64,000 nt of DNA from Pseudomonas phage WP1: sequence record PP596839.1. One strand, written 5' to 3'. The stretch's first letter is position 1, and each line of letters begins with the position of its first letter. This document shows, piece after piece, positions 2,111 to 60,020 of this stretch. A model generated the notes under the pieces. It worked only from the letters and a program-made list of their open reading frames with translations, searched no databases and was not told the DNA's origin. The position numbers and the translations under genes are program-made.

Positions 2111-2440
2111 CTAAATGGGGTTGGCGCGGTCTTCCTCGGTCGGTTCCGGCGTCGGGGACGGGAAATCGCCCTCTTTACCGTCCTGTACATGGCCATTGGC
2201 TTCGGCCGCAGCAGCGACGGTGGCGGTCTGAGCCTCGGCTTCCGATGCGTAGAAGCCTGCCAGTCCGCGACCGACCCTGGTTCTGCCAGGCTCGTCAACG
2301 AACGTGATTTCGGCCAGAACGTTCAGTTCCTTGATGGCAGGTAGACGGCTAGAGTCCTTGACAGTGGGATCGCGAACCACCTGGAGAAGTTCGATGAAGC
2401 GCCGTCTTTGGATTCCACAGATCGGACGTTCTGGTCGCAT
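2111..2440 (-). CDS. hypothetical protein (109 aa)
   Basis: ATG overlaps stop of upstream minus-strand gene (TGAATG); protein-like sequence. Confidence 0.5.
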   Translation of the reverse strand: MRPERPICGIQRRRFIELLQVVRDPTVKDSSRLPAIKELNVLAEITFVDEPGRTRVGRGLAGFYASEAEAQTATVAAAAEANGHVQDGKEGDFPSPTPEPTEEDRANPI

Positions 2441-2650
2441 TCAGCTGGCTTTGAACTGCTTGCGATAGTACGGGTTGGACTCCATCGCGAAGATGCGAGC
2501 CTGGGCCGGCCCGTCCATTGTGCTCTTCGCCCCAGGTCGCCCGGAAGACCCGCCAGGAGCTGTAGCCTTGAACGCGCAGGTCGATGTACAGGTCGAAACG
2601 CTTCTGGTTGATCGCCGCGAACTGCGGATCAGCGAATTCGTGGCGTGACT
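2441..2650 (-). CDS. hypothetical protein, frame-disrupted (…HEFADPQFAAINQKRFDLYIDLRVQGYSSW… then …MDGPAQARIFAMESNPYYRKQFKAS*)
   Basis: two adjacent protein-like segments in different frames on minus strand; no ATG in first segment. Confidence 0.3.
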   Translation of the reverse strand, partial: SHATNSLIRSSRRSTRSVSTCTSTCAFKATAPGGSSGRPGAKSTMDGPAQARIFAMESNPYYRKQFKAS

Positions 2651-2990: not shown

Positions 2991-3590
2991 TCTGCCTTGT
3001 GGCTTAATTCCTGGTTCCGCTCGTCGAGTTTTGGTCCCTGCCGCTTAGTCCGCCGTGGTGTTGCCGCTGCCCATGGTTTGGAAGGACGGAAGTTTCCGGC
3101 GACCCTGCCGCGAGTTGAGCGGAATCGGAAACTTGCCGGGTAATGTACAAGCTTAGCGCCGCGAGGCTTTCAAAGACTAAACTATTCCAAATTCCCAAAT
3201 TCCCATTAATTTTATTAATTTTAAAGATAGGTAACGTCCGTGATAGATTTTTTCTATTAGGATTGTGCAGTCGATTTTCGCTGTAGAATAGTTTTAACCC
3301 ATGCTCGGAAAACCGGGAATTCGGGAAAACGGCCGCAGGCCCGCGCGGCAGTAGGCCTCCCATCTTCCCAGTCAGAATCGCAGTCCAGGAATTTGCGGCT
3401 ATTTCCACACAAAAATCCACCTCAAGCCCACAATTTCTCAGCATTTCACGGAGGATCCAGTCACCATCCATGCCATACCAACGCCGAAAATCTATCAGCT
3501 TCCCATAATACGCCATCGCCACGCCACCCTAATTCCCACATGGCTTTCAAGCCTCACCCGTTCACAAGCTAAATTAATGTTCTCCGCACC

Positions 3591-3641: not shown

Positions 3642-5365
3642 CTAAAAATCCTCGCCCAGTATCTTGGCTCGCTCTGCCCGTACTGCTCGAATTTTTGCCA
3701 TGGCAGCCTCATCGGTCATGTCCGGATCGCCCTTTCTCAGCAGGTACACCAGCGCATCATTGAATGGCGGCAGCGTCGTCTGCATGCTTCTTCGACCAGT
3801 CAGGCGCGACCTTATCCACGGCGGCAGGCACCATCCATTCAGGCCGTTCTTATTCGGAATGAATCCCAGCGCTTTCAGGTGTGGAGTTAAATGGCGAGAA
3901 ATCGGCTTCTTCCTGGCGAGAATATCGAACCACTTCAGAATGGAAACGGTGTCTGCCCTCCACCCAGGAAGTCTTGGAATTCTTGCCAGGCTTAACCTCT
4001 TCGAACTCACGACTGATCAGGACATTGATCAGGTACATGTCAGTCGTATCGTCGCGAACCATGCCATCGCGCATTCTCCATTTCCGAAATAGAGAAGTTC
4101 TGGACTTCGCGGTTTGCTTCCGACACCATATTCCAGGTAGCCGTCGACGCCATGCTCTTCGATCCACGGCGCGGCATCTCGGCCATCGCTTGCCAGGATT
4201 TGCGACCGAAGTCGGTGAAGTCCACCTTGAACGGTTCATTGCCATCGCCCGGCTTGACCCAGTCTGGTTTTCCATCCTCATCGGGCAGTTGAGCAGCGAA
4301 CATCGGGTAGAAACGTCGGTTCCCAGAGTCGTCCCGCTGGAGTCCATCGTAGCCGTTGCCGTCCATTATGGTGATCCATTGTCGCTTGATCGTCTCGCCC
4401 GGTTCAGGCTTCCTGGTCGAATGTATCAGAAGACCGCACCAGAGAACTCCTTGATGCGTTCCATGTCGCCCTTTTTGAATCCTGACATTTCCCCGACGTT
4501 CGCAGTAACCGAGTTGCCGGTGATGTTGCGCAGGAATGGCGTCTGGTCATGCCGGCTCAGGTCGAGCTGGACTGGAGCCAGGTCGCGACCGCCCGACAGT
4601 TCCTTGCATGTCAGCAAGCCGAAATAGGATTTACCCGCATCTTGCCCACCAGTCAAAGCCAGAGTAAATCGGGGCCGAAATTCCCGGATAATTGATGCGA
4701 CAGTACAGGCTCAGCCAGAAATACTTGCTCACCATCCGGTTCAGTTCGGTGTCGAATGGCTTAAAAAGATCGATCAGGCAGCGTGCCAGTTCGCTCTTCG
4801 CCGTCCCACTCCGGAATCTTCTTCTCAAACGTCTCGATCAGCGAGTTGCGGCGATATCGACGCGCCCAAACGCAGCAAGTCTCAGTCGTCTTCTTGATCG
4901 AGGGATCGTCCAGGGCCGCAGCCGCGAGGGCGCCCATCAGGTCAGTCGGATCGAGGGTCTTGTTGTTGAACGCCACGCCGCGATGGTCCACCAGCCGGCC
5001 GCGAAACTCATCGAAGTGCGGATGCGGGACGGTTCCATCACCCTTGCAGAACAGGTGTCGTACACCGCTAGATAGTTGCTGTCGGAAGTCGAGCTGTATT
5101 TCGTGATGAAGTCGTCGAACGGCCCTTTCACCACCCGGCTGACCGGAAGATCGAACGCCTGGTCGAGCATCAGCAATCGCGCTCGCTTTCTCAGGCCTGG
5201 TTCCGCATGCGCCTCGGCGTATCTTGCCGCCTTTTGCGCGCGATGCGTTTCGTTCCTCGCAATCGCATCATCGGCCGCCTTGCTCGCGGCGGTCATCAAA
5301 GGGTCCATTCCAGCATCTTCTATCTGCGTGAGATCAAGCTCATCTGGACCCTGATTCGCCATCAT
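3642..5365 (-). CDS. P4-alpha/D5-like primase C-terminal region plus SF3 helicase (Walker A GGQDAGKS), reading frame broken at least 5 times
   Basis: chain of minus-strand ORF fragments (142, 76, 65, 76, 108, 122 aa) that read as one protein when frames are switched; Walker A motif; C-terminal domain typical of phage/plasmid primase family. Confidence 0.5.
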
Positions 5366-5551
5366 CAGAAATATTATCTTCGTCGATAATCATGTTAGGT
5401 TTGCCGCCTTCTGCTTTACATGATCGGATTCAGCATTGCCTCTACATGCTCGAGGCGAAAGGGACGGCTATTATCTCCTACCTAAACCGGCATGGCTAAT
5501 AAGTTCCGCCCCCATCCGAAAATTTCTGTACCGTTCGTCGATTAAAATACG

Positions 5552-12375: not shown

Positions 12376-13378
12376 ATGATTCCTGATCATAAAGTCATCA
12401 TTGTAGGCGCCGGACTCGCCGGACTTATCGCCGCGCATCGCTTCCCTCAAGCTCAAATCATCGACGCGGCGACGCCGGAGAACAAAGAGCGTCACAACGC
12501 GCTCTTGCGATTCCGCTCACCAGTCATCGGCCAGCTCACCGGCATCCCATTCCGCGAAGTCACCGTACACAAGGCCATCTACATTGACGGCGGGTTCGCT
12601 CCCCAGCCGCGCATCGACTACTGCAGCATGTACTCCAGGAAAGTAACGGGCGGCCTGTCGGATCGGTCCACCTGGAATATGGCGACCGAAAAGCGTTGGA
12701 TCGCTCCGGCCGACTACCATGAGCAGCTGGTCGCTAAGCTGGCGAATCGCATCAGCTGGGGAAGGCCTTTCGACGCCTCTTTCTTCCAGTTCCTTCGCCG
12801 GCAAGATGATCACGTTAATATCATCAGCACAGCACCATTCCGCGCCAACCTGGCTGCGGCAGGACTGGACCTGGGTATCGACCCGTCATTCGGCGAAGGC
12901 ACTGCCATCGTCGTGAGTCGGTACAGGCTTTCCATTCCTTGTGATGTCTTCCAGGCGGTGTATTTCCCTGGTCCCGAAGTGGGAACGTTTCGAGCGTCCA
13001 TCACCGGAGACACCCTTATCGTCGAATCCGTTACTAAGGGCGTCGTGGAGACTGCCGATGGTGAAATCGAAACCATCGAATGGGACAGCAACTGGGACCT
13101 GGATGAAGTTTGCTCGGCCTTCGGCATCAGGAAGAAGAATCTCATTCCGGACGGCGAGCCGACCGTCCAGACCAAGGGTAAAATCATTCCGCTCGGTCGC
13201 GACGAGCGCGAATCCGATGACCTGGAATCTCACCCATGAAGCCGGCATCTTCTCGCTCGGTCGGTTCGCGACTTGGCGAAACGTCCTCCTGGACGATCTG
13301 GTTTCGGACATGGACGTCATCGAGCGCCTGATGACTTCTTCGTCTTATCAGAAGGCCAAGAAGATGTTCGTGAAATAA
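12376..13378 (+). CDS. FAD/NAD(P)-binding oxidoreductase, UDP-galactopyranose-mutase/amine-oxidase-like fold; one frame break near 13230
   Basis: N-terminal Rossmann dinucleotide motif VIIVGAGLAGL; C-terminal LGRFATWRN…DMDVIERL resembles C-terminus of Glf-family flavoenzymes; AAGGAA RBS. Confidence 0.5.
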
Positions 13379-46256: not shown

Positions 46257-47417
46257 TCAGGCATCGGTTAGATGCCGAGGTAGCGCACCACAGCCCAGTG
46301 GGCGTTTGCAGGTAGCGCCGGCAGTGCCGTTGGAGAAATCCTCCACAGTGCGACTTCGCCCGCTTTTCGACGCCAGGGGTGATGAACTTGCTCTGAACCA
46401 GCTGGCTGAACACGGTGCCGCCATTGGTGCTGCCATTGACGGACGCGTCCATCTCTTCGACGAAGAGGACCAGGGCGTCTTCCGGCGTTTGGCCCTGCAT
46501 CTGGACGCCGGACAGCTCCGGAGCCGACATGATCCGCATCTTCGGATAGGTCTGTTCGATCCAGTCAGGAACCGAAATGCCGTAAGGCGTGGTCACCGAC
46601 AGGTAGTTCCATCCTGCTGGTGGCCAGGGCCATTGGCGATCTTCTCGGCCTTCGGGTCGATCTGGTCTTGGCTCTGGATGCGCAGCGGGCGGACGGCCTC
46701 ACGGATATCCCCGATGATACCCGCCCAGTCGGCAGTGGCCCAGCCCTGGCTCGGCGGAGTCTGGAACGGCGGCAGGTTGGGTCATTCAGGAAACCATGGT
46801 GCGGTTGCCCAGGCCGCTCTGCCAGCCGTAAAAACCGATGGCGTTGCGGAAGATTTCCAGGCCGATGGCCGCCTGCTGACGCTTGGTCTCTGCGCTGTTC
46901 AGTCGAATGGCCGAAGCGCGGCCCTCTTCCAGGGTACCGATGAGCAGGCCCAGCTCATCATGAACGATGGTGCGGCGCTCGAAGTTGGCGTTCCAGCTGG
47001 TCAGCGGGATGTTGGTGTGGTCACCGTATTCCATCGCAGTGCCGGCCGGCTCAGCGATACCCTGAACGATTTCCTGGTCTTCCCAGGAGCCAGCGGTGTC
47101 GATGCCGATGATCTCATCGATTTTCCGCGCGGCGGTCATTACCTTCATCAACCCAGGCAGCCAGGCCGAAGGAACTGGATGGGGGTCGGGATGGACGGCG
47201 TGGTCACCGGGGCGGTGAAGTTGCTGTCCATGGCCGAGCCGGAACGGAATGCGCCGGCCTTCGCCAGGGCCTTGATCTGGTCCTGGACGACGGCGTGATC
47301 GAATACCAGGCCGATGCGACCCAGGGCGGCCATGGCTTCGTGGGTGACGTTCTTCAGGTCGAATGGCTTTGCGTGACGGCCTGCGAGGCGCGAATGGGTC
47401 TTACTGATATGGCTCAT
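46257..47417 (-). CDS. major capsid protein (about 385 aa), 3 frame breaks
   Basis: AAGGAGG RBS then ATG; segments [29 protein letters not shown]…, …[35 protein letters not shown]…, …[27 protein letters not shown]…; position after scaffold. Confidence 0.6.
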
Positions 47418-47423
47418 TACGCC

Positions 47424-48067
47424 TCCTTACTGCGTGAGCTGGACGATGGTAACGCCAGTTACCAGGTTCCCTGCCGACTGGGCAGGGCAGGCCGATGGCA
47501 TTGACGATACGCGCGTTGGGGATTTGAACCAGGCCGGTTGGCATCAAGCCAGCCTTGAAACCGACCAGGGCGCCGGCCGGCAGGCCCAGGGCATTGTCGG
47601 CGGTAGGCAGGTCGTTCGGTACATGCGCCATCCGGATCGCCGTAACTCAGGTCCAGGGCGGTGGCGGCGCCGTTGAAGATTTCGACGACCAGGCCGGTGG
47701 CCATTGTCGAAGAACTCGCCTTCGGAGCCATCGGGCAGGCCATGGCCGGGGGCGAGGGAATTGCCGGCCGACCCGTACAGGGCATGACGCTTCGGGTGGC
47801 CGAGGATGCCGAAGAAGGTTGCGCCGCCGACCATCAACTTCAGGAAGCGCGCGCGGCAGCGGTCTTCGGCTGGCCTTCACCGAGGGAGCCGACATCACCT
47901 GCGTAACCGAACGCGCGACTGATGCGGTTGGGGCCGGTGGCAGTCGCGGCCGGAGTGACCGATGCCAGCGCCATGATCCGACCCGGCCGCGCACGCTTCG
48001 GGCCGTCCTCGATCAGGTCACCAGGAAAACCAGGAGTGTACTGGCGATAGACTTGTTTCTGGAACAT
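47424..48067 (-). CDS. head decoration/accessory protein, frame-disrupted
   Basis: GGGGGAG RBS; [49 protein letters not shown]…. Confidence 0.35.
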
Positions 48068-48070
48068 GGG

Positions 48071-48926
48071 TTACTCCCCCTTCAGGTAACTGTCCAGCTC
48101 GGCGCATTGCGGAGCAGGAACTGGCCGAATCCTGGGCTTTCGATTGACGGCTGGCCGCGCCATCAGCAGCTTCGACGCCTTTCAGGTACATTGTCGAGCG
48201 CCAGGGCTTCCTGGCCCTTCTCACAGCTGATTGCCAGCTTCTTCACGCCGTAAACAGCGACTTTAGCCGAGTCCATGGCTCGGTGATCGAACGCACCAGC
48301 CATTGGAACTAAGACGCTTGTAGAGGCGATCTTTAGCAGCAGTGTCGCGATAGAGACCATGAATTGCAGGATCTTGCGCGTTCTTCTGTGCCATTTCAGG
48401 AAGTTCCTCGCTGTTATCCTTGCCCTCACCACCATTGTCGCTGGCGGTTTGCGCGCCGCTGAGGATGCTCTGTTCTTCCAGGCCCTCGACGACATCTTGA
48501 CCTTTGTCATGCTCTTCGTCCGCCTCTTCGGCTACCGTGCCCTCCAGTCGAGCCAGGACGGCCTTGACCTGGGAGATCAGTTCGGCGACTTCGCCTTCAC
48601 CGGACATTTCGGATGCGGCACCTTCTTGATGCTCCGGATCGACGGCGGCCATGGCCGGATCGACAGCGGACGGCGCTTCTTCGTGCTCTTCGTCGTCTTC
48701 CTGAGCGCCTTCCAGGTCGGATGCTCGGTCATGTGCTCGCTGTCGGTCGGTTCGGCCGGAGCAGCTGCGCCTTCCTGGTGCTCCGGCTCCTGCGCCTCTT
48801 CGCCCAGGAACTTCTGGACAGGTCGCAGGAGCTTCGGCCAGGGCGCGCAGCTCTTCGACCGCCGAATCAGGCAGCTTGTCCTGCGCGCTGGACAGGAGTC
48901 TTCTGCTTGGCTTTCTTGAGACCCAT
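48071..48926 (-). CDS. acidic scaffold protein
   Basis: GAGGG RBS; long D/E-rich helical region …AELISQVKAVLARLEGTVAEEADEEHDKGQD…; sits directly upstream of decoration and capsid genes. Confidence 0.5.
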
Positions 48927-49019
48927 TTCATTACCCTCATCGGATGGTCTGAAATCAGAACTGAGATGGTCAGGGACCGGCCATCCAGTACTCTGGCCCC
49001 CGGCATAGTCACCCTCTTT

Positions 49020-49440
49020 TACCAGGGCGATGCGGTTGCCGCGCATCTTGTCCTGGACGACTTCATGGCTGTTCCATTCCAGGTGCCGGGTTGCTCAGTG
49101 TAGTGGCAGCGATAGCCTAGGGACAGGTCTTCCTTGCCCCTTTCCAGCCGATGCTGGACTGTCGCGGGAATAGATACGGATATCGCCGCGAGCCCATTGG
49201 AGCTTCGTAGTAGGCGTTGGCTGTGATGATGCCTTCCACACCTTTGTCTTCGGGAGCCATGCCGTCGTCATCGCCGTCGAATCCCGACAGCATTTCGTGC
49301 TCGTCGATCAGCGGGAGATTCTTCAGGGATTCGATATACTCAGGATCATGAACAGCAGGCTCCGGACGATACACGTTGACAGTCCGCATTGGATCGCCCG
49401 GAAGACCGAGTTGACCGGCAGGTAGATTGGAAAATGCCAT
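49020..49440 (-). CDS. hypothetical head protein, first gene after AT-rich regulatory region
   Basis: 107-aa [54 protein letters not shown]… with frame change near 3' end. Confidence 0.4.
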
Positions 49441-50050
49441 TAGCTGATTGGACAGCCCTCGATGGTCATTTATCCATTTTCGTCAGTTTTTCTTTTCGAC
49501 TTTGCCATCGTTAATTCGAAGAGTCGTGGACTATGGCTGTATTATATACGCAGGACATCCAGGGTAAATAAGCGGAACAGTAATTAGATGTAGCCGCGAC
49601 TGTTAATTTACATTAGAATCTGTATTGTGATCTAATTACCGGATTTCCTCAGCCGCGAAAACTGGTAACTTGGTTTCGGAAATTTGACGGGATTTGTCTA
49701 AGCCTACTGCCGCAGGGCTTTCAGTCTTTAAACTAATCCAGGTTACCAGCTTACCAGTTAAAAATTGAATTTCAGTACGTATAGAGCATGGTCGATTCAC
49801 GTTATATTATAACGTTACTTATATATGAATTCTATTAGAACGTTATTCCTAATTTCCCATGCTATATACTTTTGCAGGATGCGGCGAAATTGGAAATTAG
49901 GAATTTAGCATGTTAAAGCCTTGCGGCAGTAGGCTTTCCAGGTAACCGCTATTTCCCAGGAAACGGTAATTTGCGGCTATCCGGACCCGAATTTTTGTTC
50001 AGGATCCGGATTTTCGCGGCATCATCAGCCGAAAGTAGTCAGGATCGAGA
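49441..50050. promoter_or_regulatory. AT-rich, ORF-free structured region with nested inverted repeats inside the head gene cluster (late promoter / packaging or replication signal / small inserted element)
   Basis: outer IR GCCTACTGCCGC (49702-49713) vs GCGGCAGTAGGC (49923-49934); inner IR ATTCCTAATTTCC (49845-49857) vs GGAAATTAGGAAT (49892-49904); palindrome CGTTATATTATAACG (49800-49814). Confidence 0.5.
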
Positions 50051-50084
50051 CGCCGATGATGGCCAGGTCCAGCTGCGGCAGGCT

Positions 50085-50375
50085 TCAGGCGAAGAATCCG
50101 CCGTTAATATTGGACTTGATCATGTCGGTCGCGAGTCGGCGTATGCATGTCTTTCGGTTCATTTCATCGAGCCTCGACAGCGAGTTTACCAGGGCGCGAA
50201 GATCGGCGACGAGTTCAGGCGAACAGTCTTTCGCCTTCTTCCCTTTCTCGCTGCGCTGGACGGAATAGGCTATGGCGGCTGCCTGTTTCGGGTCTTTCCC
50301 TGCTTCAGTTCTCCCGCTTGATGTTTTCAGGACGGGCTTCATTGGAAGTTCCATTGGACTAACGGCATGTCGCAT
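50085..50375 (-). CDS. hypothetical protein (96 aa), Mu G-like position between MuF-family gene and scaffold
   Basis: clean ORF 12 nt after MuF stop. Confidence 0.45.
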   Translation of the reverse strand: MRHAVSPMELPMKPVLKTSSGRTEAGKDPKQAAAIAYSVQRSEKGKKAKDCSPELVADLRALVNSLSRLDEMNRKTCIRRLATDMIKSNINGGFFA

Positions 50376-50387
50376 TCCTATCGACGA

Positions 50388-51890
50388 CTAAATGATTGGG
50401 ATTTTTCTGCACCGGCAGTTAATTGCCCAGCCTGGCGGTCCTTGGTCGGCCTTTGGACCTTCCCAAAGTCTAGGGTCATTCAGTTTGAATCTTTTCCCGT
50501 CCTTTTCCAGGTGGGTATGGCGAGGCGTCTTTCCTGCCGAAGAGTGCATCCATTCAAGCTCTTCGACTCCATTCTCTGCCATTCTCTCATCACTCAGCGA
50601 ACTGTAAAGTTTACTGGTTTGATCTCTTGCGATGAGTTCGATTCGGTTTTCAGGAAACTTTCCGACTTCTCTAAGTGCATTTGTTATCCCGGAAGTTCCT
50701 TGTTCCTCTGGGTTTGGAGAAGTCAGGTACAGTATTAGGGTGTGTAAATTTTCTCGTGGACTTCCTCTTGAATGTTGGTGATGAGGGTATGGTTGTAAGT
50801 AGTCGCGGCTTCCAGGGCGTTCCTGACGCTTTCGTTGTATGAAGCTCGCGGCTGATCGACACCGGCCATCGACAGGCGATGTAGAGTCGCAGCGGTCGCG
50901 GCTTCGTCGGCCCGATTGACGAACTCCGGGGCGATCTTTGCCGCGAAACCTTCAGAGATGCGATTCCACCGCTGCTGAAGGCTTCGCAGGGTCATCTTGA
51001 ACAGGACGTTCATCGATTCATTCTTTCGCGAAAAACCGTTCGGCCGCAGGCTGGGATATGGCCTTCTCTATTTCATTTCGATAATCGGCGATCATTAGCC
51101 TGGCCATGTCCTTCATTTGCTTTCGATACGAGGCCTTCGATTCCAGGAGGAGGAATTATGGGCTTGCCTCTTCCGACTGGAAGAGGCGCCCGGCGTTCGC
51201 GTTTCTTGGAGGCTTTGAACGCCATCACTTGCCTCCAGGTCGGCTTCGTCGTGTCGCCATTTGCCAGCCAGATGACGGAAGGCGGGCAGGTCAGCTTCAT
51301 GGATGGAGCCGAGTCCATCCCAGCCCGGGACGGAAGCAATAACAGGTATCCAGGCTTGGCGTCGTTAATGTTGTTGAAGCCGAGCATGGACTTGTGCTCG
51401 TCGAATTGCCCATCTTGTTCATCTGGTTGACGACGAAGACCCGTTTCGAACCAAGGTTCGGGCCGACGAAGCAGTCTACCTGATCACCATCAGCCCCCTT
51501 CGTACCTTTGATGAATCCATGGCGGTGCTTCATCTGTACTCGCCAGCTCCCATCCTTCCCTTGACGGATGCTACCGCGCGGATTCTCAGTCAGGGTGGTG
51601 ATTCCATTAACCTTGATTCTTTGGAGTTCCGAATGGTCGCGAGGGCCGACGATGCGGTTGGACGAAAACACCGAAGGTTCGATGCCCGATACGCTCGGCT
51701 TGGACGTTCGCTTCAGGCCTGGCGCATCATCATGCTCTATATCCACGCCGTTCGGAGCCTGCGCGTCGTCCAGGGCTTCGAGTTTCGACAGTAGGTCGGA
51801 CAGCAAGTTCCGAAGCTCGGCCCTGGGGTCCGGCCGCGACGGCGGTACGGCGGCCTCGGCGGCCCCTTCCTCGGCCGCTTTCGCGAGGGG
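50388..51890 (-). CDS. MuF / SPP1 gp7-family head morphogenesis protein, frame-disrupted
   Basis: C-terminal signature …GPPGWAINCRCRKIPII* (HxNCRC-type) and VEELEWMHSSAGKTPRHTHLEKDGKRF block. Confidence 0.55.
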
Positions 51891-51891
51891 C

Positions 51892-53532
51892 TTAGTACCG
51901 CGTGGCGCGGCCGGAACTGGGTCGCCTGCGCCTTCTACGGCGCCCGCTTGGGCTTCGGCTCGTTCGGCCTCGCCTTTCGCCTTCGCCGACTGCGCACCGG
52001 CCTTTTCGAGTTCGGCCAGGTTTTCCGGAGATATTGCCCGGCTCGGTTTCGGCCTGATCGTCGGTGAGTCGATTGTAGCCGGAGCGCGGATCGTCACGCA
52101 GGCGCTCGCGGACTTCATCCGGAGAGACGACGCCTGAGTTGATGTAAATTTCATCAGTAGCGGCTTTCTTGTTATTAAGCTCGGCTTGTTGCTGGCTGGT
52201 TGTGGAATCCACAGGGTTCCAGGTGATTTCCAGCTGTACATTGATTGCTTCCGATTTTGCCAGGCAGCAAGTAATGACGCTCAGCAGCGGGTCGAATATA
52301 TGCTCTTGAATCGATTCCAGCTCTTCGTGATAAGAAATCGTTTCGTGCTCACCAGTCGCGTTGAATCCTTTGGGAGAAGTGCCGAGTAGCTTCGTCGCAG
52401 GAGTCTTGGCGATGGCCGCAACCAGCCGATATTGGTTCATTATGACGCTGTCGAAATCGGACAGGTTCGTATCGAACTGCTCCATGGTTTCATCAGAACC
52501 AGTAACTTTCACGCGATTGGTTGTCTCGATTGGCGATCCAGGACGCCAGCCGGGCGTTGAAGGCATCCTCATTCGCGATGGCCTTTTCCACGGTCAACGT
52601 GAATGGTGCTGGTTCGCTTCGACATCGCCAGGAACGGCGCTTCGTTCGCAGTTCGCTCGGCAGCATGCAGGCGCTCGTAAATGCGCTGGGTGAGCGGGAT
52701 GCCTCCGAAAATGTATGTCGGCTTCAGGATATCTGGAGGCTGCGGCCCATCGAACGACCACCAGGTTGGCTGCGATGATACTTCTTCCCGCTGATGATCC
52801 AGAAATTGGGCTCATGGCAAGTGTTCGGCAGGCGGGTCTGCTGTGGACTCTGCAGTCAGCGAGGCATTGCCCAGTATGGATCGATCTGGGAAATTCCCTT
52901 GTACGAGCCGGGAGCTATTCCGTCTGGGTTGAATGGCTTCTCATGGTAGTCCGGATCGTCAGGCTCAGTGATGAACAGGGCGATTCGAACGCCGAAGACG
53001 TTTTTGAATCGGTTCAGTTCGACGAGGTTGTCTTTGACGCGAAACTCCATGTCGCGCCGAGCGATTAGCGCGCTTTGCTCATCAGGCAGCTTCCGGCCAT
53101 CCGACTTGAGTTCCCATCCGTTCCGCGCTGCGTCTTCGCCTGACATCTGGAGTAGGCTTTGTCGACCAGCCAGTGTTGAGAAATGATGGCGCAGGCTTGG
53201 TATCCGATGAATCCTTGGGAGTTATACCAGCTGCAGGACTGCTCGGTACTGACATGGGGATTCTGGCCGCCAGCGGCAGCTTTCGCGGCTGGGGTGGGTC
53301 CGTCACCATGCGCATTGTCCATTGCGACGGATAGGCCCGGCTCCAGGGAATCCTTCACGCTACGGATGACCGGGGCTTTCTCCGGCTTGACATTCCAGCC
53401 GCGAATCTTCCCCAGCTGAATCATGGGGTCGAGCGGATCGTGTTGAGGGATTCGTGCGACTTTCTCCGGCGCCGATTCAGAACAGGCAGGATTATCCTTT
53501 TTGCGCCCGAATATCCAGGAAAGTTTAAACAT
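51892..53532 (-). CDS. portal protein, Mu gp29 (DUF935)-like, frame-disrupted; alternative ATG at 53543
   Basis: N-terminal …[24 protein letters not shown]… and C-terminal …[17 protein letters not shown]… blocks. Confidence 0.55.
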
Positions 53533-58643: not shown

Positions 58644-59039
58644 GTGATGCTGCGAATCGTCCAGTCCATCCTCGCGATCCTCATCGGGATCGCTTGGGCC
58701 TGCGCCGACTATGGAGTCGTGGCCGCCGAACTTCCGCCATCGTTGCAGGCCCATCCCGCGAGGCGAGGGCACAGCGAAGTCTCGGCCCGCGACCCTAGGT
58801 TGGTCGAGGCCGAAAAAGCGCGGGAAGAGGCCTTAGAATATGTCCTTTCGCTGCGCCCGGAAGTTATCGAGGCGAAAGCCCGCTTCGCGGCCGAGGCGGC
58901 GCAGCAAGGAATGTCCACTAAGAAGTATGCTGAGGTGCAGGGCCAGGCCAGGATTCTCACAGGAATGCTATTGGCGTTTGCAGCATTTCTGTTCATTTTC
59001 AGGACCATGCTACCCAGGCCTTTGAATAGGCCTGGGTAG
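58644..59039 (+). CDS. membrane protein (N- and C-terminal TM helices)
   Basis: 131-aa clean ORF. Confidence 0.45.
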   Translation: MMLRIVQSILAILIGIAWACADYGVVAAELPPSLQAHPARRGHSEVSARDPRLVEAEKAREEALEYVLSLRPEVIEAKARFAAEAAQQGMSTKKYAEVQGQARILTGMLLAFAAFLFIFRTMLPRPLNRPG

Positions 59040-59100
59040 ACCACAAACCCCAGCCAGAGGTAGAATCACCATTAAGAAAGAACCGATTCACCTCAGCTCG

Positions 59101-59421
59101 ATGGCCTCGGCCCGCGCTATCGATGCGGAATTCGCATTCCGGATGGACGAGTTCATGGCGCGTGTAGCGAAAGAGCACGAAGCGCTCGCCGCTCGCCTGA
59201 ATGCCGAGAATGAAGCGCTCTGGGGCGAAATCCGCGCTGTCGCCGGCCTGAGCGCCATCGACTTCCCGAACATCGCCATGGCGCATGACAATTCCGATGG
59301 GAAGCTCTATGTCATGGACGCCGACGAGTTGGAGCGCGTCCGCCAGTCCTGCCCGTGCCCGGACTGCGCATCCGCTCGCGCAGGAAGAATGCCGTCGCAG
59401 GCCAGTGGAGGGATTCATTAA
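59101..59421 (+). CDS. hypothetical protein (106 aa, CPCPDC motif)
   Basis: clean ORF; TAATG coupling. Confidence 0.45.
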   Translation: MASARAIDAEFAFRMDEFMARVAKEHEALAARLNAENEALWGEIRAVAGLSAIDFPNIAMAHDNSDGKLYVMDADELERVRQSCPCPDCASARAGRMPSQASGGIH

Positions 59422-59639
59422 TGGCTCTGAAGCTATCTTCCGTTCACGTTCGAATCGACGGACCTGACGGAAAAGTTCTGTCGGAAGGCCGCGCAGAGTT
59501 CTCCGGGACGGCCTTCTGGATCGCCGCGCAACGCGAAATGCAGCTCAGGCACCTCGTCGGAACTTCATTTGAAGGTGCCCTTACCTATTTGGCCGACAAC
59601 GGCTATAACGTAACATTCAGGAAAGGTGAAAAGCGATGA
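59421..59639 (+). CDS. hypothetical protein (72 aa)
   Basis: coupled start. Confidence 0.45.
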   Translation: MALKLSSVHVRIDGPDGKVLSEGRAEFSGTAFWIAAQREMQLRHLVGTSFEGALTYLADNGYNVTFRKGEKR

Positions 59640-60020
59640 TCGAAAGACACATCGTGGATGCGGAAGTCGTCGAGCGGATTCGTTCTCTTCGCCATGCGAC
59701 TCAGCGTCCTGGACGAAACCCTGCAACGGGCCGTCGACATGGCGATGCTCAGTCACCAGAAATCTCTGCAAGACCTTCGAACCTATGAAGCTCAACCCTG
59801 GGATGCGCTCAACGCCCGTTACGGCCTGTCCGTCGAGAAGACTTATGACCTGCGTTTCGAGGGCGAAGAAGCCGTGCTGGTCGAGGTGCCGCCCGGCGAC
59901 GGACAGGGCGATGACTTCATCGTCGAGTCGGAAACCGAAGCGCTCGCAGCAGGCCAGAAAGACCTGGAAGTCGGCGAGGCCGTTGCGTCGACACTCAGCG
60001 CCAGGAACCGCAACGAGTAA
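59636..60020 (+). CDS. hypothetical acidic protein, one frame break
   Basis: ATGA coupling; ends 7 nt before terminator. Confidence 0.4.

What the first reader, a model, noticed from the sequence alone, without database searches (positions are those of the whole stretch)
49441..50050. 600-bp AT-rich, ORF-free, highly symmetric region in the middle of the head-gene cluster
It lies between the Mu G-like gene (ends 50085) and the first scaffold-side gene (starts 49440). Outer inverted repeat: GCCTACTGCCGC at 49702-49713 versus GCGGCAGTAGGC at 49923-49934, with extended imperfect arms of about 30 bp. Inner perfect 13-bp inverted repeat: 49845-49857 versus 49892-49904. Palindrome CGTTATATTATAACG at 49800-49814. 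AT content far exceeds that of the surrounding 58 percent GC genome. The position matches a late promoter between G and I in Mu-like phages. The size and nested symmetry instead suggest a packaging or replication signal, or a small inserted inverted-repeat element.
Basis: seen in the sequence. Interest (0 to 1): 0.75.

Follow-up and report, generated by a model that had tools for sequence, protein, structure and literature searches.

The report
Second copy of phage packaging-start region
The AT-rich gap is a conserved non-coding control region of a Pseudomonas PB1-like (Pbunavirus) phage, holding the known promoter of the capsid-protease operon and a ~300-bp inverted-repeat element that is a sister copy of the DNA-packaging start site upstream of the small-terminase gene; two related phage genera have the same duplication, and I found no earlier description of it.

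Summary
The repeats, the AT-richness and the lack of ORFs are real and far beyond chance. The window is not a Mu-like phage. It is an error-rich copy of a Pseudomonas Pbunavirus genome, and frameshifts misplaced the stated gene borders; the true gap is about 49509-50021. All ~296 Pbunavirus records hold the region. Its promoter-proximal end (49541-49568, minus strand) is the homolog of sigma70 promoter P014 of phage 14-1, whose start site was mapped experimentally. The symmetric core, "Element A" (~49676-49980), is a paralog of "Element B" (window ~3125-3420). Element B lies between the primase-helicase and small-terminase (terS) genes. Virion DNA ends map to the centre of B in JG024 and Ab27-29, and five GenBank records start or end at that same nucleotide. 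Serratia phage MTx and E. coli phage WFC show the same A/B pair, with their physical genome terminus in the centre of B. Within a genome A and B resemble each other much more than their counterparts in other genera. That points to a shared, lineage-specific DNA-binding factor, most plausibly TerS. What A itself does is inferred, not shown. It is most likely a second, mostly uncut docking site for the packaging-recognition protein. A twin replication origin or a promoter operator remain possible.

The parts
49509..50021 (-). True non-coding gap between the ORF20 homolog (stop codon at 50024-50022) and the head maturation protease gene (ATG at 49508-49506), defined by homology because the window's reading frames are broken
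   Evidence: Alignment A1 with 8 Pbunavirus relatives. Annotations of Epa6, HTN3 and 14-1. The protein N-terminus MAKSKRKIDENGY is conserved in WFC, tabernarius and FoX6.
49541..49568 (-). Sigma70 promoter, homolog of 14-1 P014. The -35 hexamer TTTACC is at 49568-49563 and the -10 hexamer TATAAT at 49546-49541. The inferred transcription start is about 49534. It drives the protease/scaffold/capsid operon.
   Evidence: Consensus scan finds this as the only site. 14-1 P014 has its start site at 13257(+) and transcription unit TU014 covers gp22. This is the least variable part of the gap, with 2 of 50 sites variable.
49676..49980 (-). Element A: the AT-rich core bounded by inverted repeats, paralogous to the packaging-start region Element B
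   Evidence: blastn of A against B in the window gives E=3e-10. In clean 14-1 sequence it gives E=3.5e-17. The two align co-linearly over about 330 nt (A3). A query made from B hits two places in nearly every one of 298 Pbunavirus records.
49915..49936 (.). Upstream (left, in gene orientation) arm of the outer inverted repeat, AAAGCCTTGCGGCAGTAGGCTT on the + strand
   Evidence: The exact 11-mer CCTACTGCCGC occurs only three times in the window, twice here in A and once in B.
49700..49721 (.). Downstream (right) arm of the outer inverted repeat
   Evidence: A compensatory A:T to G:C change between Pbunavirus clades keeps the two arms matched (A1 columns 212/420).
49889..49904 (.). Inner inverted repeat, upstream arm
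   Evidence: Conserved across relatives.
49845..49860 (.). Inner inverted repeat, downstream arm. It contains the position (49852|49851) homologous to the DNA-end site GCGAAAAT|CGATTGC of Element B.
49799..49815 (.). 17-nt palindrome ACGTTATAATATAACGT. It lies about 50 nt upstream of a second sigma70 promoter predicted in the LMA2 and LBL3 records (equivalent to window ~49749-49776); no start site was detected for that prediction in 14-1.
49739..49760 (-). Tandem iterons (TGGTAAnnTGGTAAnnTGG). In Element B of 14-1 the homologous block is the active promoter P040. In A the -10 hexamer is degenerate (GATTAG against TATACT).
49937..49974 (.). Further iteron copies (GGTAAYYTGG-like) upstream of the left arm. 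Another copy is at 49663-49673, downstream of the right arm.
   Evidence: In 14-1, 11 of 12 genome-wide matches to GGTAATTTGG (at most 1 mismatch) fall in the two gaps.
49676..49686 (-). Flank motif CAARTTTCCGA shared by A and B
   Evidence: In 14-1 it occurs only at 13104 (A) and 59434 (B). Window matches at 49676-49686 and 3125-3135.
3125..3420 (-). Element B: the paralog, between the primase-helicase gene (3642-5393, minus strand) and terS fragments (2111-2642, minus strand). Right arm 3151-3171, tandem iterons 3187-3204, left-arm core 11-mer 3345-3355. The homolog of the mapped DNA end lies at 3274|3273.
   Evidence: terS identity comes from the match of 14-1 gp76 to PDB 7UXE, E=2.5e-125. 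DNA ends.

Best explanation
The region is a conserved non-coding control region of a Pbunavirus, with two parts.

(1) At the gene-proximal end sits a host-type sigma70 promoter, the homolog of 14-1 P014. It starts the protease/scaffold/major-capsid transcript about 25 nt before the protease start codon. This part is shown, by homology to a mapped start site.

(2) Upstream lies a ~300-bp AT-rich element, 'A'. It is bounded by a 22-bp inverted repeat and flanked by short GGTAATTTGG-type iterons. A is a paralog of the packaging-initiation (pac) region 'B' that lies just upstream of the small-terminase gene. The paralogy is shown.

In B, the terminase makes the first cut in the AT-rich centre between the repeat arms. 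This is shown by others' read-end data and by the starts of GenBank records.

The rest is inferred. A keeps the flanking recognition modules but has a diverged centre. I infer that A is a second docking site for the same lineage-specific DNA-recognition protein that marks B, most plausibly TerS. I infer that A is normally not, or only rarely, cut. Binding there could couple packaging recognition to the head-gene operon: by synapsis of two pac-like sites, by titrating TerS, or by controlling the adjacent promoter.
For: Identity of the genome and conservation of the gap.

Promoter.

Paralogy of A and B: E=3e-10 in the window and 3.5e-17 in 14-1; co-linear alignment over about 330 nt; two places per record in 298 Pbunavirus genomes. 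Motifs are confined to the two loci.

B as packaging start: it lies 500-600 bp upstream of terS, which matches PDB 7UXE. In JG024, 36 of 161 long reads start at 59,376 and there is a matching pac restriction fragment. Essoh 2015 saw reads with a fixed end in Ab27-29. Records of phages 109, PA8P1, Ab29 and PA19 start, and Pa193 ends, at that same nucleotide.

Same architecture in two other genera: in Serratia phage MTx, A against B gives E=5e-32 and the alignment spans the terminus predicted by PhageTerm. In E. coli phage WFC, A against B gives E=2e-18 and record position 1 lies in the centre of B's AT-rich spacer, between inverted iteron arrays.

Concerted evolution: within-genome A-B pairs are the three best of 66 pairwise comparisons, and every cross-lineage pair has E of 2e-5 or worse. 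Iteron sequences differ even between the two enterobacterial phages. That argues for a phage-encoded factor rather than a host one.

Compensatory changes keep the arms matched in A and in 14-1-type B.

The gap is constrained: 11% of sites vary, against 44% at third codon positions of the upstream gene gp19.
Against: No binding data exist. A review reports that E217 TerS showed no appreciable DNA binding in vitro.

No DNA ends are reported at A. In the DTR phages MTx and WFC, A is not a terminus, so A's link to packaging rests on homology alone.

Three related lineages lack a detectable A/B pair: FoX6, tabernarius and Gekk3-15. A is therefore not universally required.

HTN3 carries a 128-bp tandem duplication inside A, so exact geometry is not critical, or that assembly is wrong.

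Constraint on A is only comparable to third codon positions of the downstream gene gp22 (16%).

B also adjoins the primase-helicase gene, so the shared factor could be a replication protein instead of TerS.
Confidence: 0.5

Rival explanations
1. Twin replication origins. A and B are two iteron-type origins, each an AT-rich unwinding region flanked by initiator-binding repeats. They would be bound by the phage primase-helicase encoded next to B. The packaging cut in B would then be a separate, adjacent function.
For: Iterons plus the most AT-rich DNA of the genome. B lies directly downstream of the primase-helicase gene in Pbunavirus, MTx, tabernarius and Gekk3-15. Promoter P040 fires out of B's AT-rich centre, as in the promoter-plus-unwinding-element origins of T4 and T7 (recalled knowledge). 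The SCUT-S1 authors speculated that the AT-rich region holding their predicted Pac site 'could be a replication origin'.
Against: Cumulative GC-skew minima of Pbunaviruses lie in the DNA polymerase region, not at A or B. The window's skew shows no inflection at A. The skew follows transcription direction, so this is weak evidence. The homologous segment in MTx and WFC is centred on the DNA terminus itself. No replication data exist.
Confidence: 0.18
2. Shared transcriptional operator. The repeats are binding sites for a phage regulator that controls the sigma70 promoters next to both elements: P014 for the protease operon, and P040/P041 for terS. The DNA end in B would be incidental.
For: Both elements lie just upstream of promoters of morphogenesis genes. 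In B the tandem iterons overlap the -35/-10 region of P040. The same layout of element, promoter and protease gene is seen in MTx and WFC.
Against: This does not explain why the physical DNA end falls in the centre of the homologous segment in three genera. The P040-equivalent in A is degenerate, and 14-1 shows no start site there. P014 lies about 180 bp from the nearest arm.
Confidence: 0.15
3. Active secondary pac site. A is itself cut by terminase and starts a minor packaging series.
For: The centre of A is homologous to the cut region of B. The E215 record, an unrotated SPAdes contig, is broken inside A only 13-14 nt from the position homologous to the B cut. SCUT-S1's PhageTerm 'Pac site' was 'in an AT-rich region' with no position given, and A is the most AT-rich region.
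Against: JG024 long reads and the Ab27-29 reads each showed a single fixed end, at B. In the DTR phages a cut at A would break the genome. B's cut-site sequence GCGAAAAT|CGATTG is not kept in A (GGGAAAT|TAGRAG). Two of 296 records are split at A, against about 2.4 expected by chance.
Confidence: 0.1
4. Structured non-coding RNA, or a MITE-like inserted element.
For: Strong predicted single-strand fold (z=-5.4). Terminal inverted repeats. One or two compensatory arm changes.
Against: No Rfam family matches; the best hit is RsmY at 14.6 bits against a gathering score of 57. 14-1 has no start or termination site inside the core. In B the mapped start site P040 lies between the arms, so the two arms are not on that transcript. 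There is no target-site duplication. Homology to the paralog extends beyond the arms. The arm 21-mer is absent from Pseudomonas species-representative genomes; 11 Caballeronia/Burkholderia hits are one orthologous chance locus.
Confidence: 0.04

Closest known systems
pac sites of headful phages P1 (hexamer repeats flanking a central cut) and SPP1 (pacL-pacC-pacR) (recalled knowledge)
   Same: Short repeated recognition motifs lie on both sides of an AT-rich centre. In the paralog B the terminase end maps to that centre. B lies next to terS.
   Different: The element in the finding (A) is about 19.6 kb from terS, inside the head-gene cluster, and no ends are known there. A genome with two homologous pac-like regions is not part of the P1 or SPP1 descriptions. 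TerS binding is untested.
Phage T4 gene 16 / gene 19 pac-homology pair and the synapsis model of L. W. Black (recalled knowledge)
   Same: Two homologous terminase-target sequences lie kilobases apart within the morphogenesis genes. One is at the terS gene.
   Different: The T4 sequences are about 24 bp long and lie inside coding DNA. Here there are ~300-bp non-coding elements with iterons and inverted repeats. No amplification or synapsis data exist here.
Two-locus iteron systems of phage replication: SPP1 oriL/oriR and P4 ori/crr (recalled knowledge)
   Same: Two dispersed loci share the same repeats, one beside the replication gene and one elsewhere. Each has an AT-rich segment.
   Different: There is no evidence of initiation at A or B. 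In three genera the shared segment is centred on a DNA terminus.
Promoter P014 of Pseudomonas phage 14-1 (Putzeys et al. 2024, PMC10914365)
   Same: The proximal 50 bp is the direct homolog. It has the same hexamers and the same downstream gene.
   Different: The window copy has a 16-nt spacer instead of 17. This is a private 1-nt deletion and probably a sequence error.

Membership tests
Sigma70 promoter (14-1 P014 homolog) | -35 and -10 hexamers with 16-18 nt spacing, upstream of a gene | tested here: met
   TTTACC-16-TATAAT, 10 of 12 matches, and the only such site in 49300-50200. It lies about 25 nt upstream of the protease ATG.
Sigma70 promoter (14-1 P014 homolog) | Experimentally mapped transcription start | not testable with these tools
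   The start site is mapped only in the homolog: 14-1 at 13257 by ONT-cappable-seq. It is inferred for the window by near-identity.
Terminase recognition / pac region | Virion DNA ends map to the site | not testable with these tools
   No read data are available for A. For the paralog B the feature is met: JG024 reads, Ab27-29 reads, five records starting or ending at one nucleotide, and the MTx and WFC termini.
Terminase recognition / pac region | Located in or next to the small-terminase gene | tested here: not met
   A lies upstream of the protease gene, about 19.6 kb from terS. B does meet this feature.
Terminase recognition / pac region | Repeated short motifs flanking the cleavage region | tested here: met
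   Iterons and inverted arms flank the AT-rich centre in A and in B, and likewise in MTx and WFC.
Terminase recognition / pac region | Sequence-specific binding by TerS | not testable with these tools
   A review states that E217 TerS showed no appreciable DNA binding in vitro. The DNA used in that assay is not given in the text I could read.
Iteron-type replication origin | Iterons plus an AT-rich unwinding region | tested here: met
Iteron-type replication origin | Strand-composition switch, or adjacency to the initiator gene | tested here: not met
   There is no GC-skew inflection at A. Published skew minima lie in the DNA polymerase region. A is not next to a replication gene, although B is.
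MITE / inserted inverted-repeat element | Target-site duplication and presence/absence polymorphism | tested here: not met
   The flanks TTTGTCT and TCCAGGT are not duplicated. The element is present in all 296 Pbunavirus records. Homology to B extends beyond the arms. There are no copies in Pseudomonas genomes.
Known structured RNA family | Match to an Rfam covariance model at gathering score | tested here: not met
   The best hit is 14.6 bits against a gathering score of 57.
Mu-like late promoter between G and I | Mu-like genome context | tested here: not met
   The genome is a Pbunavirus, up to 95% identical to the listed phages steven, HTN3 and Epa14. The flanking genes are ORF19/20 and a DUF2213 protease.

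The most novel reading that the evidence does not exclude
PB1-type myoviruses (Pbunavirus, Myosmarvirus, Wifcevirus) use a two-site packaging-recognition system. A non-cleaved twin of the pac/terminus region, placed at the head of the prohead-gene operon, is bound by the same TerS assembly as the true pac site. The two sites would synapse, or the twin would tie capsid-gene expression to terminase availability. The pair has either been kept in step for a long time or arisen repeatedly at the same genomic position.
Probability: 0.25. Interest if true: 0.75.

Novelty: new variant of a known kind. Interest (0 to 1): 0.55.

Why it matters
Pbunaviruses are among the most widely isolated and most used therapeutic phages against Pseudomonas aeruginosa. 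They are now being rebuilt synthetically. Their packaging signal has been described only tentatively, as a read-end position. Reports on their genome ends conflict. Purified E217 TerS showed no DNA binding in vitro.

This analysis gives the packaging-start region a defined anatomy: iterons and inverted arms around a fixed cut at GCGAAAAT|CGATTGC, upstream of terS. It also shows that the genome carries a second, homologous element in front of the capsid-protease operon.

That supplies concrete DNA substrates for TerS binding and structural work. It marks two cis-elements that genome designers should not disrupt. It raises a testable question about why a pac-like site is kept, in step with the real one, in three genera.

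Tried and rejected
Recoded stop codons as the cause of the short ORFs were rejected. The cause is private indels.

No tRNA or tmRNA genes and no Rfam family were found.

A hidden small protein gene is ruled out: no ORF of 25 aa or more is conserved.

There is no intrinsic terminator in the gap, and no termination site there in 14-1.

There is no target-site duplication or mobile-element signature.

An origin inferred from GC skew has no support.

An exact-motif scan of IMG/VR for a second copy of the L012 iteron found only the known copy. Paralogs share too few exact bases for that approach.

The search for related loci with TerS reached only close Pbunaviruses.

The A/B paralogy was looked for and not found in Xanthomonas phage FoX6, Pseudomonas phage tabernarius and Aeromonas phage Gekk3-15.

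The Lokareddy 2022 TerS paper could not be read.

The position of the SCUT-S1 'Pac site' is not given in the text.

Full report
**What the window is.** The 64-kb window is a Pseudomonas Pbunavirus (PB1-like myovirus) genome, not a Mu-like phage. A 6.1-kb stretch around the finding matches 364 phage records, 293 of them over at least 80% of its length. The best matches are about 95% identical (phages steven, HTN3, Epa14). The structural genes run on the minus strand.

Every large gene is broken into short ORFs. This is not an alternative genetic code. Against its closest relative the window has 45 gap openings in 6 kb and an excess of T>C changes. Two natural relatives differ from each other by one gap in 6.5 kb. 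The sequence is therefore error-rich.

By homology the protease gene starts at ATG 49508-49506. Its N-terminus MAKSKRKIDENGY is conserved in other genera. The small ORF20 stops at 50024-50022. The true gap is about 49509-50021.

All three symmetric features are at the stated coordinates. The outer inverted repeat (22 nt, 1 mismatch, arms 193 nt apart) was never reached in 200 dinucleotide shuffles (mean 11.1, maximum 16). The core is the most AT-rich stretch of the window (GC 0.39 against 0.56). No ORF of 25 aa or more is conserved among relatives. There is no tRNA, no Rfam family and no terminator-like site.

**Conservation.** The gap is present at the same place in 296 Pbunavirus records at 86-96% identity. 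Among seven clean sequences, 11% of gap sites vary. The figure is 44% at third codon positions of the upstream gene gp19, 16% at third positions of the downstream gene gp22, and 3-6% at first and second positions. The region is constrained, but not uniformly.

**The known part.** The only sigma70-like site is TTTACC-16-TATAAT at 49568-49541 on the minus strand. It is the homolog of promoter P014 of phage 14-1. ONT-cappable-seq mapped that start site at 13257, and its transcription unit covers the protease gene (Putzeys et al. 2024).

The same data list no other start site between 9247 and 18699. They list no termination site between 6661 and 35525. The symmetric core is therefore not a detected transcription start or stop in 14-1. 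A second promoter predicted in 2009-era annotations (LMA2, LBL3; equivalent to window ~49749-49776) has no mapped start.

**The new part: a paralog.** The 11-mer at the heart of the repeat arms, CCTACTGCCGC, occurs exactly three times in the window. Two copies are in the finding and one is at 3345-3355. Around that third copy lies a second element, B (window ~3125-3420). It aligns co-linearly with the finding's core, A, over about 330 nt.

The shared modules, in order, are:
- an ATAGCCGCAAATT block;
- the left arm;
- an AT-rich centre;
- tandem TGGTAATTTGG iterons;
- AGTTTAG;
- the right arm, which is the inverted copy of the left;
- CAAGTTTCCGA.

blastn gives E=3e-10 in the window and 3.5e-17 in clean 14-1 sequence.

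In 14-1, 11 of 12 genome-wide matches to the iteron fall in the two gaps. A query made from B hits 610 places in 298 Pbunavirus records, so nearly every genome matches at two places, consistent with A plus B.

**What B is.** B lies in a 963-bp CDS-free gap between the primase-helicase gene and 14-1 gp76. gp76 is the small terminase: it matches PDB 7UXE, E217 TerS, at E=2.5e-125. A review notes that the E217 terS gene lies about 58 kb from terL.

Several independent lines place a fixed virion DNA end in the AT-rich centre of B, at GCGAAAAT|CGATTGC:
- In JG024, 36 of 161 long reads start at 59,376 +/- 5, and a matching pac restriction fragment was seen (Ipoutcha et al. 2024).
- Essoh et al. 2015 saw reads with a single fixed end in Ab27-29 and no terminal repeat.
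- The GenBank records of phages 109, PA8P1, Ab29 and PA19 start, and Pa193 ends, at that same nucleotide.

In 14-1 the tandem iterons of B also form promoter P040 (start site 59399), which transcribes towards terS.

**The same pair in other genera.** Relatives whose protease is 46-51% identical keep a 520-650-bp gap upstream of the protease gene. Those gaps hold lineage-specific repeats and inverted arms.

In Serratia phage MTx (Myosmarvirus) the protease-upstream gap is 69% identical over 260 nt to the region between the primase-helicase gene and terS (E=5e-32). That alignment spans the left genome terminus predicted by PhageTerm.

In E. coli phage WFC (Wifcevirus) the two gaps share inverted arrays of GATACGGAT iterons around a very AT-rich spacer (E=2e-18). 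Record position 1, the start of the 3.78-kb terminal repeat, lies in the centre of B's spacer.

Among 66 pairwise comparisons of such gaps, the three within-genome A-B pairs are by far the best. All cross-lineage pairs have E of 2e-5 or worse. A and B therefore evolve in concert within each lineage.

The repeat motifs differ even between the two enterobacterial phages, so the factor that reads them is more likely phage-encoded than host-encoded. This is inference.

No A-B similarity was detectable in Xanthomonas phage FoX6, Pseudomonas phage tabernarius or Aeromonas phage Gekk3-15. More distant relatives have no gap at all.

**How A most likely works.**

Shown:
- A is non-coding, conserved and symmetric.
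- It carries the same flanking motifs as the packaging-start region.
- It sits immediately upstream of the promoter of the prohead-building operon.

Inferred:
- The same recognition protein binds both elements. TerS is the obvious candidate, because B is where packaging starts and lies next to terS.

A's centre differs from B's at the cut. A has GGGAAAT|TAGRAG where B has GCGAAAAT|CGATTG. In MTx only half of the near-palindrome at the terminus is kept in A. A is not a terminus in the two terminal-repeat phages.

I therefore favour an uncut or rarely cut docking site (confidence about 0.5). Its consequence is open: synapsis with pac, as proposed for the T4 gene 16/19 sequences; titration of TerS; or control of the neighbouring promoter.

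Compensatory changes keep the arms matched in A between clades. In 14-1-type B, both arms read CTTAGTGCCGC/GCGGCACTAAG. The single strand folds well (z=-5.4). Matched arms fit either base pairing or symmetric protein recognition and do not decide between them.

**Rivals.**
- A pair of replication origins fits the iterons, the AT-rich DNA and B's position beside the primase-helicase gene. It has no support from strand skew and does not explain why the termini are centred in the homologous segment.
- A shared promoter operator fits the position but not the termini.
- An active secondary pac site is hinted at only by the E215 record. That record is an unrotated SPAdes contig broken inside A, 13-14 nt from the cut-homologous position. 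The count of records split at A (2 of 296) is what chance predicts.
- An RNA gene or an inserted mobile element is unlikely.

**Novelty.** The AT-rich gap and its promoter are already in the literature and in annotations. I found no mention of the A/B paralogy, of the anatomy of the packaging-start region, or of its recurrence in three genera. I searched full text for Pbunavirus with 'intergenic region', 'AT-rich' and 'PhageTerm', for PB1-like with 'origin of replication', and for the E217 TerS literature. The library is incomplete: Ceyssens 2009 and Lokareddy 2022 could not be read. I rate the finding a new variant of a known kind, a pac-type cis-element with a conserved non-terminal twin, of moderate-to-good interest.

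Noticed in passing
whole window; measured on 46500-53500: The window is an error-rich Pbunavirus sequence. Against its closest relative it has 45 gap openings in 6 kb and a strong T>C excess on the gene strand, while two natural relatives differ by 1 gap in 6.5 kb. All large genes (portal, protease, primase, terS) are split into short ORFs. Any ORF-based border in this window is unreliable.
   Followed up: yes
window 3125-3420 (minus strand); cut-site homolog at 3274|3273: This is the packaging-start (pac) region of the phage, upstream of the terS fragments at 2111-2642. ORF 3004-3522 (172 aa, minus strand), like JG024 gp77, overlaps this element and is probably spurious. The 14-1 RefSeq record leaves the 963-bp gap unannotated.
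   Followed up: partly
L002 (phage HTN3, PP916316.1) 3904-4030; equivalent to window 49780-49907: HTN3 carries a 128-bp tandem duplication inside Element A that spans the inner inverted repeat. It is either a real length variant, showing that arm spacing is not critical, or an assembly artefact.
   Followed up: no
NC_042080.1 (phage E215) record start/end; equivalent to window 49837: The E215 record, a SPAdes contig deposited unrotated, is broken inside Element A at ...AACGTTC|CAATAGAATTC. That is 13-14 nt from the position homologous to the pac cut of Element B. It could be chance, an assembly break at a hairpin or a low-coverage spot, or a hint of real ends.
   Followed up: partly
L033 (14-1) 13283-13322; window 49508-49470: The annotated start of 14-1 gp22 (13322) is probably 13 codons too far downstream. 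The longer N-terminus MAKSKRKIDENGY is conserved in WFC, tabernarius and FoX6. The mapped start site at 13257 then leaves a leader of about 25 nt with no obvious Shine-Dalgarno sequence.
   Followed up: partly
Element B left arm: L034 (14-1), L036 and L040 against JG024, L035, L037-L039 and window 3345-3355: There are two allelic forms of B's left arm. The 14-1 type reads CTTAGTGCCGC and is a perfect complement of B's right arm. The JG024 type reads CCTACTGCCGC, is identical to the arms of Element A, and matches B's right arm at 9 of 11 positions. This suggests gene conversion between A and B. The ~250 bp upstream of the arm also exist in two very different versions.
   Followed up: partly
14-1 gaps 12771-13282 and 58934-59896: GCGGCA/CGCGGC-type motifs are 2-6 times enriched in both gaps, and similar 'GCGGC' words recur in the corresponding gaps of MTx, WFC and tabernarius. 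This could be a family-wide recognition word or a composition effect.
   Followed up: no
L012 2510-2845; L016 2600-2870: Metagenomic relatives have striking arrays in the same protease-upstream gap. L012 has at least 8 copies of the palindromic TTATCCGATAA. L016 has a 60-nt inverted repeat built from GTTGCGG words. Their terS-upstream regions could not be fetched to test for a twin.
   Followed up: partly
L124-L134 (Caballeronia / Burkholderia genomes): The 21-mer of the arm (AGCCTACTGCCGCGAGGCTTT) occurs once in each of 11 Caballeronia/Burkholderia genomes. In the two loci read (L124 and L132) the flanks are near-identical to each other and unlike the phage element. This looks like a single chance match inherited within a genus.
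   Followed up: yes
L118 (tabernarius) 65175-66051: The gap upstream of tabernarius terS holds about 7 copies of (A)TAGTCA and an AAGTTGCAC/GTGCAACTT inverted pair. The short word GCAACTTT(T)CG / AAGTTGC also occurs in its protease-upstream gap. A weak two-site relationship below BLAST sensitivity may exist there too.
   Followed up: no
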